Origin: a virus
Taxonomy: Duplodnaviria; Caudoviricetes
Length of the DNA stretch: 35,556 bases
Reading direction: 5' to 3' (one strand)
IMG/VR virus record: IMGVR_UViG_3300025676_000048
Span: 1-35,556 of that record
Shown: in pieces, positions 15,422-26,917 of the stretch
Numbering within the stretch: position 1 is the stretch's first letter
Layout: each line of letters begins with the position of its first letter
Notes under the pieces: model-generated
Told to the model about the DNA's origin: nothing
Seen by the model: only the letters and a program-made list of their open reading frames with translations
Database searches by the model: none
Made by a program: the position numbers and the translations under genes

Positions 15422-17160
15422 CGTTGTTTTGGTGGTTGCTCTGTTTTCTTCGGTTCATCGACAACTTTCTTCGTTGTCGGTGCTAACAACCGCAATGCAG
15501 CCAATGCGTACACCCGGCAATCAAGCGCTTCATTTCTTGGCCGTGTCTGAACCCATTCTTGCCGAGGTCTGCCTTTGTTGTACCGTGTTACCAACTTTTC
15601 AGCCGTTAATTGCTCAAAATACTCGTCATCATAGTCGGCCTGATTGGGGAAATGACAGTAAGCAGCGCCCGGCTCAGTTATCTTGAGTCGTGAATAGATA
15701 ATTGATTTACCCTGATCGACCCCAATTGGCTCCGGTGCAAAGGCTCGTTTGCGCTTCTTCCGCAGCCTGGCGTTGCGTTTCTGTGTATCCTGAACCAACG
15801 GTAACCCTTGGCCTGACACCCCTTTGATCGCCCAGACCCATCGTTTGCGGTCAACCCAATTGTAAACAAGTTGGGTGTTATAGCCTGAGTCGATGCACAT
15901 ACCATCCGGCTGCAAATCAGCAACGACATCATCAAGTGCTGACCAAACCTCTTGGCGTGTTGTGTCACCGGGAACAATGATGTATTCCAACCCCCAAGAT
16001 TCTTCACCCTCACCCCAGCCAACCAATTCCAACTCAATCCTGTCTTTTTGGACATCGGCCCCGATAGTCCTCCACAATATCGGTGGCTCATCATATTCCT
16101 CTCGCCTGAGTATCAGTGAATTAGGGTCGGCTTGCTCCCCTTGTTCTTCCCATGTCTCGCCCAGAACCGTATTGACCCATGTCTTGAGTTGTTCTTCACC
16201 GACCTTTTTAGCCGCTAAGAAGTCAGCCACAGCATCGGACCATGAGTACCACCCAACCGGTGAATACAGGCTGCTGAGATGGAATCCGGTAAACCGGCCC
16301 TCACTCGTTGCTCGCCATTCACCATCACTCAGTAACTTTGTCTTGTTCGACTCCGGCACAATCACCCCACAATGCTGACAAGTCATTGCTGCTGTGTCTG
16401 GGTCGTTGTCTGTCCAGGTAATCATCTTCCATTCCAATACCTGAAACTCACCGCACTCAGGACAGGGGATGAAATAACGCCTTTGGTCAGATTGCTCGTA
16501 ATAATCCTCAATGGCTGAGATACCCTTGATTGTGGGTGTGGACACAATGAATATCTTGCGGTTACGTTTATAGGTTGCCGTCCTGCGAATCGCTAACTGG
16601 ATCGGGTCACCCTCACCGTCCAAGTCCGTTGGATAGCCATCGACCTCATCCATGAATAGATAACGTGCTGGCATTGAGCGCAATCCAATGGCTGAATTTG
16701 CACCGGTCAGAATGAGTGTTCCACCGGGATAGTCTTTCTGAAATAGTGTGTTGCCGGAATCCCTCGCTCTAGCCACAGCAACCTTTGCTTTGACCTCTGG
16801 AATAGCATCAATCATCGGAGCAATACGCTGTTTGCTTGCTCTTTTAGCAGCGTCAACTGTCGGCATAACGTAGAGCATCGGTGCAGGGGCATGGTGAATC
16901 GTGTAGCCGAGCCAGTTATTACCGGCCTCGGTTGCGCCAATCTGCGCCCCTTTCATGAACACCACAATGCTCTCAGGCCGTGTTGCCGACAAGCAGTCCA
17001 TGATTTCTTTCAGGTACGGTGTTCGCCGGGTGCGCCACTTGCCCGGCTCACTTGATGCAGCCTGATCGAGCAGACGATACTGGTCAGACCACTCGGAAAC
17101 AGTGACATCAGGTTCTGCCAGGATTGCGGCAGCAACAGAAGTACAGTAAGCACTAGCCAT
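15385..17160 (-). CDS. terL: Terminase large subunit, lambda gpA family
   Basis: EPGKW...RTPY, MKGAQIGATE (Walker A variant), LFMDEVD, STPT, PCPECG, GADVQKDR and NEALDC motifs. Confidence 0.96.
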   Translation of the reverse strand: MASAYCTSVAAAILAEPDVTVSEWSDQYRLLDQAASSEPGKWRTRRTPYLKEIMDCLSATRPESIVVFMKGAQIGATEAGNNWLGYTIHHAPAPMLYVMPTVDAAKRASKQRIAPMIDAIPEVKAKVAVARARDSGNTLFQKDYPGGTLILTGANSAIGLRSMPARYLFMDEVDGYPTDLDGEGDPIQLAIRRTATYKRNRKIFIVSTPTIKGISAIEDYYEQSDQRRYFIPCPECGEFQVLEWKMITWTDNDPDTAAMTCQHCGVIVPESNKTKLLSDGEWRATSEGRFTGFHLSSLYSPVGWYSWSDAVADFLAAKKVGEEQLKTWVNTVLGETWEEQGEQADPNSLILRREEYDEPPILWRTIGADVQKDRIELELVGWGEGEESWGLEYIIVPGDTTRQEVWSALDDVVADLQPDGMCIDSGYNTQLVYNWVDRKRWVWAIKGVSGQGLPLVQDTQKRNARLRKKRKRAFAPEPIGVDQGKSIIYSRLKITEPGAAYCHFPNQADYDDEYFEQLTAEKLVTRYNKGRPRQEWVQTRPRNEALDCRVYALAALRLLAPTTKKVVDEPKKTEQPPKQRWNSPQGGGAWL

Positions 17161-18361
17161 TAACTAATTCTGCTTTCTTACCAGTGAAATCCTCCCACCG
17201 CTTAACAATCACATCGCAATACTTTGGGTCTAGTTCCATCAGGTAAGCGTTGCGGTTGGTCTTTTCGCAAGCAATGAGGGTTGAGCCAGAGCCACCAAAG
17301 CAATCATGAATCACATCACCACCCTTACTACTGTTCAGTAATCCCTTTTCAATTAACTCAACAGGCTTTTGTGTTGGGTGTACATATTGCCCCGTCCCAC
17401 CTCTGCTCATATACCACACATCCGACTGCGCTTTATCTCCATGCCATTGACCACCACAATAAAAGATAAACTCATGTTGTGGTCGATAGTCACTACGACC
17501 AAGACCTATGCTTTTTTTATCCCATACAATACACGCTGACGGCTTGAGACCAATTGAAGTTAATGCCGCATGGAACTCGGCGTAAGTTCTCCATGTAAAA
17601 CAAATATAAGATGCGACTCCACTTTTAGCACCCATAATGGCATTGCTAATGCTATCTGCCACCATTGCCAACAAGTCATCTCCTTTTAAATCATCGCCTA
17701 TTATCATTCCGTGCGCTTTTACAAGCGCACCTTTGGTTGTAGAGCCAGCCGCTCTCCCACCGCCGTATGCCATTCCGTATGGTGGGTCAGTGAATACCAT
17801 GTCAGCCTTAACACCACCCATCAACAACTCAACCGCATCGATGCTGGTGCTATCGCCACACATCAATCGATGATTGCCAAGTTGGTAAATATCGCCCAGC
17901 TTGGTGGTCGGTTCTTCTGGAACTTCTGGAACTTCATCTTCGTCCGTTAATCCCTCAACCTCTGGATTCGCATCCATAGCATCGAGTTCATCAATCGTGA
18001 ATCCAAGCAAATCAATATCAAAGTCGAGCGCTTGTAGTTCTTCGATCTCAATCGACAACATCTCCAAATCCCAATCAGCGTTCAGTGCTAATTTGTTGTC
18101 AGCGATTATGTACGCTTTCTTTTGTGCCTCTGACAAATCACCCAACCGAATACACGGCACATTCTTTAGACCTAACTTCTGCGCTCCCATTAGTCTGCCA
18201 TGCCCGGCAATGATGCCGTTATCTTTGTCGATGAGGATTGGATTGGTGAACCCGAACTCCTTGATGCTTGCCGCTATCTGACTGACCTGATTGCTGTCGT
18301 GAGTCCGTGAGTTGTTGATGTAAGGTATTAAGTCATCTGCTGCTATTTGCTCAACTTTCAT
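17153..18361 (-). CDS. ParB-like domain fused to an N6/N4 DNA methyltransferase
   Basis: FGFTNPILID..NGIIAGHGR and ADNKL (ParB). TDPPY, HPTQKP and DCFGGSGST give a beta-class amino-methyltransferase order. Confidence 0.93.
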   Translation of the reverse strand: MKVEQIAADDLIPYINNSRTHDSNQVSQIAASIKEFGFTNPILIDKDNGIIAGHGRLMGAQKLGLKNVPCIRLGDLSEAQKKAYIIADNKLALNADWDLEMLSIEIEELQALDFDIDLLGFTIDELDAMDANPEVEGLTDEDEVPEVPEEPTTKLGDIYQLGNHRLMCGDSTSIDAVELLMGGVKADMVFTDPPYGMAYGGGRAAGSTTKGALVKAHGMIIGDDLKGDDLLAMVADSISNAIMGAKSGVASYICFTWRTYAEFHAALTSIGLKPSACIVWDKKSIGLGRSDYRPQHEFIFYCGGQWHGDKAQSDVWYMSRGGTGQYVHPTQKPVELIEKGLLNSSKGGDVIHDCFGGSGSTLIACEKTNRNAYLMELDPKYCDVIVKRWEDFTGKKAELVNG

Positions 18362-21048: not shown

Positions 21049-22365
21049 CTATCTTCCTGTTTCATTAATATCAATCACATCCATTGTTGCCCTAATAAAT
21101 TCCTCTGCCACTGGTGCTACGATTGCGTTGCCGTAGCCTTTGAGTCTGATAGTCCTCGCTTCAGCGCTTGCGTTTGGCGTAATGACTGAATCGCAGCTAT
21201 GCACCACGCCTCTGGCAATCCCATCAACCAACGGCTTAATGCCGGATTTAATTGGCCTGTACTTTTGGTCGCGGCAGTAGAGCCATTCAATATCATCCCA
21301 ACCTGATGCGGTAGGTGCATCTGCCTCCCATTCTTCTCGTTGTTGAGCGAGTTCTGTGGGCTGTGCCTCAAGTCCTGTACTTTCGGTGTTGCCCACCCTG
21401 CTATCTGTGCTTGACTCTGCTCCTGATCTCCGGCCATCCATGCCGCTGTCGCTAACGGATTGCCGCTGTTCACTCCGCGTGGATTGTTCGGATTCTTGTC
21501 CGGCCCCCCTTTGGGCATCGTTGGTGTTGGCCATCCGGCTATGCTCGCTATTGCTCCGATGCCGTTCTGCCTGTCCTCCCGGTAACGGTTGCAGTCCTTG
21601 TTCGCATTGTTCGCCATTGGTGTTGGCCATCCGGTCAGAAAAGCCTGTGTTGAGGTTGAGTCGTTCCTGATTCTGCCTGTCGGACTCCCGAATATGTAGT
21701 TCTCCAGGTTCCCTGTGTTTTTGTAATCTCGCGTTGTCGGTGTTGCCCACCCCGATACCATCGTCACGGCCTGACTCAAATCCTCCGGCTTCATGTTTCT
21801 CCGCTTCAACTCCCTCTCCGCACCCTCTGGAGTCCGGTTGTTCTTTCCCCCATCTCCGTGTCTTGGAGTGGGCCACCCAATAGATTCTTTTCCTGATGTG
21901 CGGTTTGCTGACGCTGTGTGCGCCAATAATTGCCGACCCGATGGTGTAGTCTTGGTTTTCCATTTCTGTGTATAAATCATCGAGCCATCCGTGCTTAATC
22001 GCTCCCTCAACCTGTTCCCCAAAGATTGTGTGAAAGCTGCACTGTCCGACCAATTCGAGGAAATGGGGGAGAAGATGTCGATCGTCTGATTGTCCTTTTT
22101 GATTTCCGGCTGCACTGAATGGTTGACACGGCAATGAAGCAGTTGCGACAGGTCGATCATCGCCCCATCCGGCATTTCTAAGTGCGTAACTCCAGACTCC
22201 AATTCCGGCAAAGAAATGGTGCTGAGTAAATCCATTAAGGTCATCTGCTTGGACCTCGGTAATTGATCGTTCATCAACCACGCCATCGGCAATATCTCCA
22301 TTAATTATCAGTTGTCGCAACCATGCTGCTGCTTTTGGATCAAATTCATTGTAATAAACTGTCAT
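21049..22365 (-). CDS. C5 cytosine DNA methyltransferase, alpha-type subunit
   Basis: HFFAGIG (I), PCQPFS (IV), GEQV (VI), PHIRKRIYWVA (VIII) and LKGYGNAIV (X). No recognisable motif IX. Confidence 0.93.
   Translation of the reverse strand: MTVYYNEFDPKAAAWLRQLIINGDIADGVVDERSITEVQADDLNGFTQHHFFAGIGVWSYALRNAGWGDDRPVATASLPCQPFSAAGNQKGQSDDRHLLPHFLELVGQCSFHTIFGEQVEGAIKHGWLDDLYTEMENQDYTIGSAIIGAHSVSKPHIRKRIYWVAHSKTRRWGKEQPDSRGCGEGVEAEKHEAGGFESGRDDGIGVGNTDNARLQKHREPGELHIRESDRQNQERLNLNTGFSDRMANTNGEQCEQGLQPLPGGQAERHRSNSEHSRMANTNDAQRGAGQESEQSTRSEQRQSVSDSGMDGRRSGAESSTDSRVGNTESTGLEAQPTELAQQREEWEADAPTASGWDDIEWLYCRDQKYRPIKSGIKPLVDGIARGVVHSCDSVITPNASAEARTIRLKGYGNAIVAPVAEEFIRATMDVIDINETGR
21117..22301 (-). 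CDS. Nested +1-frame gene, putative methyltransferase beta subunit with five W(P/A)TP modules and motif IX
   Basis: A 394-codon stop-free frame inside the methyltransferase gene. It has five GW(P/A)TP repeats and C-terminal GQLNPALSRWLMGLPEAW. The true start is uncertain. Confidence 0.8.
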   Translation of the reverse strand: MEILPMAWLMNDQLPRSKQMTLMDLLSTISLPELESGVTHLEMPDGAMIDLSQLLHCRVNHSVQPEIKKDNQTIDIFSPISSNWSDSAAFTQSLGNRLRERLSTDGSMIYTQKWKTKTTPSGRQLLAHTASANRTSGKESIGWPTPRHGDGGKNNRTPEGAERELKRRNMKPEDLSQAVTMVSGWATPTTRDYKNTGNLENYIFGSPTGRIRNDSTSTQAFLTGWPTPMANNANKDCNRYREDRQNGIGAIASIAGWPTPTMPKGGPDKNPNNPRGVNSGNPLATAAWMAGDQEQSQAQIAGWATPKVQDLRHSPQNSLNNEKNGRQMHLPHQVGMILNGSTAATKSTGQLNPALSRWLMGLPEAWCIAAIQSLRQTQALKRGLSDSKATATQS

Positions 22366-25161: not shown

Positions 25162-25442
25162 TGAATCCATATAGTGATTACGCAACTGATGAGCAGCGTG
25201 ATGGGGTTTGCAAAGCAACCAATCAACACATTGCTATCGACCAAGTAGAGTTCGCAAAGGTTATGGATCGGGTACGCAACAAAGCAGACGATGAGGCAGC
25301 ACAAAAGATTGAGGCCAAGCAAGAACTCTTAGAGAACTTGGAAGAAATACTGCTCAATCTGTCATTCAACCGAGAGGCATCACCGCATCTATATGAGGCA
25401 GTTGAAGAAGAACGTGACACGCTGAAAAAGGAACTCGCATGA
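25161..25442 (+). CDS. Hypothetical protein
   Basis: Coupled on both sides within the early operon. Confidence 0.7.
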   Translation: MNPYSDYATDEQRDGVCKATNQHIAIDQVEFAKVMDRVRNKADDEAAQKIEAKQELLENLEEILLNLSFNREASPHLYEAVEEERDTLKKELA

Positions 25443-26098
25443 ACATCAGACAAAAACTAAGCATTGTGCAACGGAACCTGGTTGCTAATAAAGGCCAGAT
25501 CAATGACTTCGCTAAAGGCAAATACAGTTATCGCTCATGTGAGGACATCCTTGAGGCATTAAAGCCTCACCTGGATGGCTGCACCGTTACGCTATCCGAT
25601 GAAATGGTGATGGTGGGTGATCGTATATACGTCAAATCTACCGCAACCTTTGCCGATGAATCCCATGCCATTGATGTCACAGCATTTGCGCGTGAACCGG
25701 AAAGTCGCAAAGGCATGGATGATGCCCAACTTACAGGGGCAACCAGTTCATACGCTCGCAAGTACGCCCTTAATGGCTTGTTTGGCATTGATGATGTCAA
25801 GGATGCCGACACAATGGACAACCGCAAATACGAAACGCTCAAGGCCAGAGTTGGGTCAGTAGAGGAATCTGCCGATGCCATGATTGAGTTACTTAGTGAT
25901 CCTGACCTTAGTGACGATGAGCGAAACTCATCCATTCATGAGATATGGTCGGAGTTGACTTCCGATGAAATGATTGTGATATGGAGAGCCAAAAATAAGG
26001 GTGGCTATTTCACCCAAGCAGAAAAGGATATTTTGCGTCCACTTTGCAGATCAACAGCCAAATCAAATTCAACCACAGATAAGGAAAAAGCAGCATGA
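25439..26098 (+). CDS. erf: ERF-family ssDNA annealing protein
   Basis: YSYRSCEDILEA.KP and KGMD.AQ.TGA.SSYARKYALNGLF.IDD.KD.D motifs. Confidence 0.93.
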   Translation: MNIRQKLSIVQRNLVANKGQINDFAKGKYSYRSCEDILEALKPHLDGCTVTLSDEMVMVGDRIYVKSTATFADESHAIDVTAFAREPESRKGMDDAQLTGATSSYARKYALNGLFGIDDVKDADTMDNRKYETLKARVGSVEESADAMIELLSDPDLSDDERNSSIHEIWSELTSDEMIVIWRAKNKGGYFTQAEKDILRPLCRSTAKSNSTTDKEKAA

Positions 26099-26641: not shown

Positions 26642-26917
26642 ATGAATAAGCATGAACTTATCGAGGCTATTGCCAAATCATCAGGACTAAAAAAAGTAAG
26701 CGCTGAATCAGCGTTGAATGGTTTTATCACCGCAGTGACCGACTCTCTCAGTCGAGGTGAAAATGTCAATTTAATTGGATTTGGTGCTTTTACCGTAAAA
26801 CATCGTGCTGAGAGAAAAGGCCGTCATCCACAAACAGGCGTAGAGATTACAATTTCAGCAGCAAACATTCCTGGATTTAAATCTGGAAAACTGTTGAGAG
26901 AGAATATTGCCAAATAA
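26642..26917 (+). CDS. hup: HU-family DNA-binding protein
   Basis: MNK.ELI.AIA and L.GFG.F....R..R.GR.PQTG..I.I.A...P.FK.GK.L motifs. AAGGAG RBS. Confidence 0.96.
   Translation: MNKHELIEAIAKSSGLKKVSAESALNGFITAVTDSLSRGENVNLIGFGAFTVKHRAERKGRHPQTGVEITISAANIPGFKSGKLLRENIAK

What the first reader, a model, noticed from the sequence alone, without database searches (positions are those of the whole stretch)
21383..21878. Array of five W(P/A)TP cassettes joined by nucleotide repeats: candidate shufflable multi-specificity module
Seen: GW(P/A)TP anchors at 21865, 21739, 21619, 21523 and 21385, spaced 126, 120, 96 and 138 nt. All spacings are multiples of 3, so both frames survive gain or loss of a unit. 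The joints are conserved in DNA (TTGGTGTTGGCCATCCGG at 21521 and 21617; TCGGTGTTGCCCACCC at 21383 and 21737), while the interiors are unrelated, basic/polar loops closing with an L...(A/V)-type helix. Known: multispecific C5 methyltransferases of Bacillus phages (SPR, phi3T) carry tandem exchangeable target-recognition domains between motifs VIII and IX. Inference: each unit may be a mini target-recognition domain exchanged by recombination at the joints (ERF is encoded), giving a programmable anti-restriction repertoire hidden in an overlapping frame. This is my best candidate for an under-described system.
Basis: partly seen in the sequence, partly recalled or inferred. Interest (0 to 1): 0.88.

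Follow-up and report, generated by a model that had tools for sequence, protein, structure and literature searches.

The report
Swappable cassettes in two-frame phage methylase
A phage DNA-methylase gene is open in two overlapping reading frames, and the hidden frame carries five short cassettes that related phages swap in number and order; each cassette likely lets the enzyme shield one more DNA sequence from host restriction enzymes, though no methylation has been measured.

Summary
Confirmed. The five GW(P/A)TP units (21294-21878, minus strand) lie in a 394-codon frame nested at +1 inside a phage C5-methyltransferase gene (21049-22365). The outer frame has catalytic motifs I-VIII and X; the nested frame has motif IX, as in M.EcoHK31I. 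Among 22 close-scaffold arrays (near-duplicates removed) there are 2-5 units of about 21 types and no two arrays are alike. DNA similarity breaks at the joints, and variants co-occur in single samples. Units are conserved as protein in the nested frame (dN/dS 0.08). The outer frame drifts there but has 0 stops in 2,592 codons, against about 100 expected. A unit-head profile without its W and P columns picks the 'TL' sites of the Bacillus multispecific enzymes SPR, rho11s, H2 and phi3T. Each unit is therefore likely a mini target-recognition domain. Not shown: methylation, expression of the nested chain, a role for ERF, or fast 'programmable' switching. AlphaFold did not fold the units. The scan found this family before on other DNA (8 notes seen); my paper searches found no description of the cassette array. 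Verdict: a new variant combining two known designs.

The parts
21049..22365 (-). Outer ORF (alpha, 438 aa): C5 methyltransferase catalytic chain. Permuted start (YYNE...DER before FFAGIG), PCQ, EQV, RKRIYWV, a ~190-aa low-complexity linker over the cassettes, then motif X; no motif IX
   Evidence: PF00145 E 1e-13; phrog_363 E 1e-66; M.HhaI E 1e-5; motif numbering by established C5-MTase knowledge
21117..22301 (-). Nested +1 ORF (beta, up to 394 aa; start codon uncertain): conserved helix and hairpin, five units, motif IX
   Evidence: phrog_1008 E 3e-28; 3,819 homologs
21906..22049 (-). Beta residues 85-132: conserved helix and beta-hairpin, predicted to pack on alpha residues 120-166
   Evidence: (pLDDT 72-91)
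21753..21878 (-). Unit 1 (42 aa); 97% DNA identity to unit 1 of L003
21633..21752 (-). Unit 2 (40 aa); same type is first in L001 and second in L054
21537..21632 (-). Unit 3 (32 aa); same type in L001, L046, L053, L054 and in 3 of 80 prokaryote-genome loci
21399..21536 (-). Unit 4 (46 aa); same type is first in L048 and L054, second in L004
21294..21398 (-). Unit 5 (about 35 aa, up to the conserved 3' scaffold); 6 matches among the top 120 homologs
21204..21251 (-). Motif IX-like LNPALSRWLMGLPEAW in the nested frame; predicted to pack on alpha motif X
21118..21138 (-). Motif X (GYGNAIV) in the outer frame
21863..21878 (.). Joint 1 (anchor); similarity blocks and contigs break here
21737..21752 (.). 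Joint 2
21617..21634 (.). Joint 3
21521..21538 (.). Joint 4
21383..21398 (.). Joint 5
25439..26098 (+). ERF-family annealase; a candidate, untested, for exchange at short homologies
   Evidence: PF04404 E 4e-33

Best explanation
The gene is open in two frames that likely make a two-chain DNA cytosine-C5 methyltransferase, and the five exchangeable units of the nested chain likely act as alternative target-recognition domains, each predicted to add one methylated sequence that would protect phage DNA from host restriction enzymes. Shown: both frames are open and conserved; the units are selected as protein in the nested frame while the outer frame is only kept stop-free there; the units vary in type, number and order, with breakpoints at the 15-18-nt joints. 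Inferred: the chains assemble (IX from beta onto X from alpha); one unit at a time docks with its invariant Thr in the role of the TL threonine, with base-reading residues after it; exchange happens by recombination at the joints between related phages.
For: Motif split as in M.EcoHK31I (PMC2836561 and PMC3404938 passages). In 80 genome loci picked by alpha motifs alone, 71 had an intact alpha by pattern; the +1 frame was open across the variable region in 70 of 71, the +2 frame in 0 of 71; 69 of 71 had at least one unit by pattern and the other two by eye. Same-type units: dN/dS 0.08 in beta and 3.4 in alpha over 47 non-independent pairs. With one pair per type, 300 interior codons gave 30/12/90 changes at beta positions 1/2/3. 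Alpha-frame stops: 0 in 2,592 codons, against a mean of 102 and minimum of 77 in 1,000 synonymous shuffles; third frame 156. Of 190 pairs, 10 had both scaffolds at least 90% identical; 9 of these share 0-50% of unit types, and L046/L053 differ by one added unit. A profile of 456 unit heads without the W, P and P columns ranks T-[LIV] sites as the top 3 hits in SPR, the top 4 in rho11s and in H2, and 2 of the top 3 in phi3T. In 17 single-chain MTase variable regions the best hit had L/I/V/M at the omitted column in 15 of 17, against a background of 72 of 183 Thr. Alpha+beta complex score 0.87, best control 0.00; this mark was reached by 116 of 157 solved complexes and 2 of 215 mismatched pairs; runs agree in at least 42% of contacts; partner pLDDT at least 54. 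Residues 221-233 and 251-259 (unit 3 anchor and the next joint) are in the confident interface. Halves of a split enzyme can pass by likeness to solved single-chain MTases.
Against: No methylation data, and no proteomic or expression evidence for beta. AlphaFold left the units mostly under pLDDT 50 in beta alone and in a natural frameshift fusion, L114. The fold search aligned only about 168 columns, roughly the size of the catalytic domain. A beta profile found nothing in the PDB at E up to 10. The likeness to Bacillus domains covers about 9 residues; only 9 of 17 single-chain regions reached p<=0.05, and several are near-copies. In the units the Thr is at the start, whereas in Bacillus enzymes more variable sequence precedes it. 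With the W and P columns kept, the best outside match was a post-motif-VIII 'WPEP' linker of an NgoMIV-type MTase (6.3 bits, against -3.9 for the phi3T/SPbeta TL site). The literature places the M.EcoHK31I TRD in alpha, not beta. The first 84 and last 22 beta residues change like a passenger frame.
Confidence: 0.7

Rival explanations
1. The units together, or only the one next to motif IX, give a single or relaxed specificity; the others are silent spare domains carried as a reservoir.
For: The complex model docks essentially one unit confidently. Members with a single unit exist, e.g. L161, L176, L187. Inactive TRDs in Bacillus enzymes are recalled, not checked.
Against: Internal units are conserved as protein as strongly as terminal ones (t3, t5, t6, t7: 0-3 changes in 23-35 codons). 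The same types occur at first, internal and last positions.
Confidence: 0.14
2. The units are not DNA readers. They are repeats of the post-motif-VIII linker (W-P-x-P, then a helix) or protein-binding modules, for example decoys or anchors for host defence proteins.
For: Best full-profile match outside the family was FSWPEP in an NgoMIV-type MTase. The units do not fold confidently.
Against: The Thr is 95-98% conserved and the following T/A-x-D-x-K-G pattern picks out TL sites. The alpha variable region is drifting, low-complexity linker, so no other candidate TRD exists. No intact member was seen without a unit.
Confidence: 0.1
3. There is one polypeptide made by ribosomal frameshifting (alpha I-VIII into beta, then back into alpha X), or beta is untranslated.
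For: PMC4351075 leaves two products versus frameshift open for overlapping mycobacteriophage methylase genes (passage). No beta start is strictly conserved.
Against: Alpha stays stop-free across the whole array. Beta stays open far upstream, where its residues 85-141 show constraint in both frames. Two separate shifts would be needed. M.EcoHK31I works as two chains.
Confidence: 0.06

Closest known systems
Multispecific C5-MTases of Bacillus phages (M.SPRI, M.Phi3TI/SPbeta MtbP, M.Rho11sI, M.H2I)
   Same: Phage orphan C5-MTase with tandem short modules between motifs VIII and IX, each with a Thr-anchored head; unit-head profile finds their TL sites; tandem-TRD role described in PMC8936443 and PMC12707154 (passages).
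   Different: They are single chains in one frame. Here the modules lie in a nested second chain, have T-P in place of T-L with a preceding W, start at the Thr instead of carrying it late, number 1-8 in homologs, and come in at least 21 types among close relatives alone. The family is broad (210 phage records).
M.EcoHK31I (YGGCCR)
   Same: Beta chain encoded wholly in another frame of alpha; alpha has motifs I-VIII and X, beta has IX (PMC2836561, PMC3404938 passages).
   Different: Monospecific; those papers put the predicted TRD in alpha. I did not obtain its sequence, so homology of its beta to this one was not tested. Motif order here is permuted.
M.AquI (CYCGRG)
   Same: Two-chain C5-MTase whose small subunit holds the distal variable region and motif IX (PMC3404938 passage).
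   Different: Its small subunit also has motif X; no module array is described in the passage read.
Overlapping methylase genes of Cluster O mycobacteriophages (Corndog 6/7) and phiH
   Same: Split, overlapping phage cytosine methylase with unresolved expression (PMC4351075 passage).
   Different: No cassettes were noted there; the second gene is described as holding the three C-terminal helices. Sequence relation not tested.
Coliphage N15 gp58; PHROG 363 (alpha) and PHROG 1008 (beta)
   Same: Same family: N15 gene 58 hides a 242-codon +1 frame with two units, one 77% identical to a unit of marine relative L009.
   Different: Annotated only as a possible cytosine methylase; the nested frame is not annotated in the record.

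Membership tests
DNA cytosine-C5 methyltransferase | Motifs I (FxGxG), IV (PC), VI, VIII, IX, X and the HhaI-like catalytic fold | tested here: met
   fold search of relative L114 gives M.HhaI E 2e-8; IX lies in beta
DNA cytosine-C5 methyltransferase | Methylates cytosine C5 in DNA | not testable with these tools
   needs assay
EcoHK31I-type two-frame heterodimer | Motif IX in a nested alternative frame, I-VIII and X in the outer frame | tested here: met
EcoHK31I-type two-frame heterodimer | Two chains associate | tested here: inconclusive
   model score 0.87 against best control 0.00; a prediction that may rest on likeness to single-chain structures
EcoHK31I-type two-frame heterodimer | TRD in the alpha chain, as stated in the papers read | tested here: not met
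   alpha variable region evolves as a free linker, dN/dS 3.4 against 0.08 for beta
EcoHK31I-type two-frame heterodimer | Sequence homology to M.EcoHK31I beta | not tested
   sequence not found in my plasmid searches
Bacillus-phage multispecific C5-MTases | Tandem 30-50-aa modules between motifs VIII and IX | tested here: met
   internal units median 36 aa, though in the second frame
Bacillus-phage multispecific C5-MTases | TL-type Thr motif in each module | tested here: inconclusive
   Thr and downstream pattern match, but L is replaced by P and the match is short
Bacillus-phage multispecific C5-MTases | Single polypeptide | tested here: not met
   two frames
Bacillus-phage multispecific C5-MTases | Modules exchangeable between enzymes | tested here: met
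   natural exchange
Bacillus-phage multispecific C5-MTases | One module confers one specificity | not testable with these tools
   needs methylome

The most novel reading that the evidence does not exclude
A widespread phage family keeps a large pool of 28-46-residue DNA-reading modules in an unannotated nested frame and recombines them at 15-18-nt joints. This would be a population-level, combinatorial anti-restriction code with one unit type per recognised sequence, and the smallest natural plug-in library of methyltransferase specificities.
Probability: 0.5. Interest if true: 0.85.

Novelty: new variant of a known kind. Interest (0 to 1): 0.68.

Why it matters
Multispecific methylases are known mainly from a few Bacillus phages. 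If these units are TRDs, thousands of phage and prophage genes annotated as plain 'DNA methyltransferase' (including N15 gp58) are multispecific, and their specificity parts lie in a frame that annotation misses. Unit type could then predict which restriction systems a phage evades and explain orphan 5mC motifs in methylomes. It also makes an open question directly testable: whether overlapping phage methylase genes give two chains (raised in PMC4351075). The locus is a clean natural case of one frame being held open only as a linker while the other is shuffled.

Tried and rejected
AlphaFold of beta (mean pLDDT 55.6) and of the natural frameshift fusion L114 did not fold the units; the fold search identified only the catalytic domain. 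PDB sequence search with the beta profile, ESM Atlas, Pfam and NCBIfam gave nothing for beta. No natural single-chain form with I-VIII, units, IX and X was found among the top 120 homologs. The longer-protein search gave 6 hits; the 4 read were beta chains, long or fused to other domains; this is weak evidence. The 'relaxed' m5C MTases of Paracoccus and Sinorhizobium prophages are described as about 700-aa proteins; I took them as a different group without comparing sequences. Plasmid hits H136 and H142 were single-chain NgoMIV-type MTases, not EcoHK31I (H142 judged from annotation and its translation). RNA runs X18 and X19 hold only short relative pieces as contigs and say nothing on expression. 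Palindrome avoidance in the genome (GATC, AGCT, TGCA, CGCG) could not be tied to units. Paper searches for WPTP, overlapping-frame or multispecific phage methylases and N15 gp58 found no description of the array; subscription papers and REBASE are not covered. Trautner 1996 and Bujnicki 2002 could not be read. No supplements were read.

Full report
Setting. The window is a whole 35.6-kb virus record with lambda-type terminase, portal, capsid, integrase, ERF, RusA and a second, ParB-fused N6/N4 methylase. Runs holding it are marine metagenomes. The host is unknown; the best genome match to the catalytic chain was in a Methylophaga MAG, which is only a hint.

Observation. All five anchors, spacings and joint strings check out, and GW[PA]TP occurs nowhere else in six frames. 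The units lie in a 394-codon ORF (21117-22301, minus) nested at +1 in a 438-codon ORF (21049-22365). The outer chain matches PF00145, PHROG 363 and M.HhaI. It has motifs I, IV, VI, VIII and X but no IX. The nested chain matches PHROG 1008 and ends in a motif IX-like segment. Motif names follow established C5-MTase knowledge. This is the split described for M.EcoHK31I (PMC2836561 and PMC3404938, passages).

Both frames are real. In 80 prokaryote-genome loci chosen by outer-chain motifs only, 9 lacked motif X in frame (broken or truncated) and 71 passed as intact by pattern; at least one of these, L191, looks frameshifted on inspection. The +1 frame was stop-free over the variable region in 70 of 71 (the exception stops after motif IX), the +2 frame in 0 of 71, and some reverse frame in 10 of 71. 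At least one unit was found by pattern in 69; L174 has a W-to-L variant and L129 three units. The nested chain has 3,819 homologs among 6,582 candidates and matches in 210 phage records, N15 among them.

The units are shuffled. Loci gave 22 arrays with a close scaffold: the window plus 21 relatives. I dropped repeat fetches, near-duplicates (L005, L011, L057), two fragments (L038, L041) and two copies identical to the window (L045, L056); five more distant loci (L018-L022) did not match the scaffold pattern; L050 is cut at its 5' end. Removing near-duplicates favours distinctness. The 64 units fall into 21 types at 50% identity (this cut merges two related types seen apart), with 2-5 units per array and 22 of 22 arrays different. 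The window is t9-t7-t3-t5-t15; L001 is t7-t3-t4; L003 is t9-t6-t1; L054 is t5-t7-t3-t8, with t5 on the other side. Blocks of DNA similarity to the window end at 21863-21875, 21737-21761, 21632, 21531-21535 and 21285-21297, that is at the joints and the 3' scaffold edge; some blocks end elsewhere in the 5' scaffold, for example at 21973. Scaffold identity does not predict shared types (Spearman 0.01 over 190 non-independent pairs); L046 and L053 have an identical 5' scaffold and differ by one unit. Among the top 120 homologs, which were selected for sharing units, types 2 and 3 stand in the reverse order in 43 of 44 proteins holding both. Contigs in runs X4 and X6 branch at joint 1 into other unit types while other contigs of the same run match the window exactly. 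One sediment run, X8, holds at least three array variants. Run X1, possibly the source, shows one form.

Which frame matters. In same-type units, dN/dS is 0.08 in the nested frame and 3.4 in the outer frame (47 overlapping pairs). Typing by nested-frame protein biases this, so I also counted changes by codon position with one pair per type, anchors left out: 30/12/90 over 300 codons, with 30 nested and 105 outer amino-acid changes. Yet the outer frame has no stop in 2,592 codons, against about 100 expected and 156 in the third frame. So the outer chain crosses the array as a free linker, and the information is in the units. Outside the array, nested residues 85-141 and 338-372 are constrained in both frames, while residues 1-84 and 373-394 look like passengers; the nested start is not fixed.

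What the units are. A profile of 456 unit heads, with the W and both P columns left out, ranks T-[LIV] sites as the top three hits in M.SPRI (L065, 99.6% identical to K02124), the top four in rho11s and in H2, and first and third in phi3T/SPbeta, where the second hit lies outside the variable region. SPR has three specificities (reference title seen); that these sites mark the mapped TRDs is recalled, as Trautner 1996 was not held. Across 17 single-chain variable regions the best hit had L/I/V/M at the omitted column in 15 (background 72 of 183), with p<=0.05 in 9; several are near-copies. Against this, the full profile prefers a post-motif-VIII WPEP linker in an NgoMIV-type enzyme, the match is short, and the Thr opens the unit instead of lying late in it. 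A complex model scored 0.87 against a best control of 0.00 (mark reached by 116 of 157 solved and 2 of 215 mismatched pairs; contact agreement at least 42%, partner pLDDT at least 54). It packs nested IX on outer X and puts the unit 3 anchor in the interface, but split halves can pass from likeness to solved enzymes. Single-chain models left the units unfolded, and the fold search gave only the HhaI-like catalytic domain.

Mechanism. Most likely (0.7): two chains assemble; one unit at a time occupies the TRD slot; each type reads one sequence; phages exchange units by recombination at the short joints; the result is broader protection from restriction. Assembly, specificity, the anti-restriction role and the recombinase are inferred. 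The gene is accessory: contigs in two studies join 21058 to 22365, relatives without it.

Comparison and novelty. It works like the Bacillus multispecific enzymes and is built like M.EcoHK31I, but fails a defining feature of each (single chain; TRD in alpha). Overlapping phage methylase genes were noted, unresolved, in PMC4351075 (passage). PMC8936443 and PMC12707154 (passages) describe tandem TRDs for Bacillus phages. My searches found no paper on this array; the library lacks most subscription papers. The scan's own notes list the family on other DNA (8 shown); they are not independent support. This window adds a close-scaffold population with breakpoints at the joints, variants in one sample, and the held-out TL test. 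Verdict: real, a new variant of a known kind, interest 0.68.

Noticed in passing
window 21058-22365: Contigs in runs X5 and X18 (two studies) join these positions with 12 other letters between: relatives lacking the whole methylase gene, so it is an accessory gene.
   Followed up: partly
window 21250-21290: The outer-frame segment WLYCRDQKYRPI overlaps in DNA with the nested GQLNP. It resembles the hairpin that precedes motif IX in single-chain enzymes (e.g. EYPKYKIRKL in phi3T), so this may be the ancestral frameshift point.
   Followed up: no
window 22215-22365: The outer chain begins with motif II/III-like segments before motif I: a permuted order shared across the family.
   Followed up: no
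window 21395-21489: A contig in run X8 skips 93 nt with 12 letters between, a net 81-nt in-frame shortening of unit 4.
   Followed up: no
window 17153-18361 (-): ParB-fused N6/N4 methylase directly upstream of the terminase large subunit, the ParB-Tls arrangement described in PMC6536676.
   Followed up: no
window 26642-26917 (+): Phage-encoded HU/IHF-like protein (PF00216).
   Followed up: no
L114, L118, L121, L142, L157, L191: Genome copies with frameshifts that switch between the two frames inside or after the array: decayed prophage genes or assembly errors.
   Followed up: partly
P0124, P0127, P0128: Nested-type chains fused to an N6/N4 methylase domain, to a primase/NTPase-like region, or carrying an endonuclease-like insert; possibly read-through artefacts.
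   Followed up: no
whole window: Strong avoidance of GATC, AGCT, TGCA, CGCG and of TGATCA, CCATGG.
   Followed up: no
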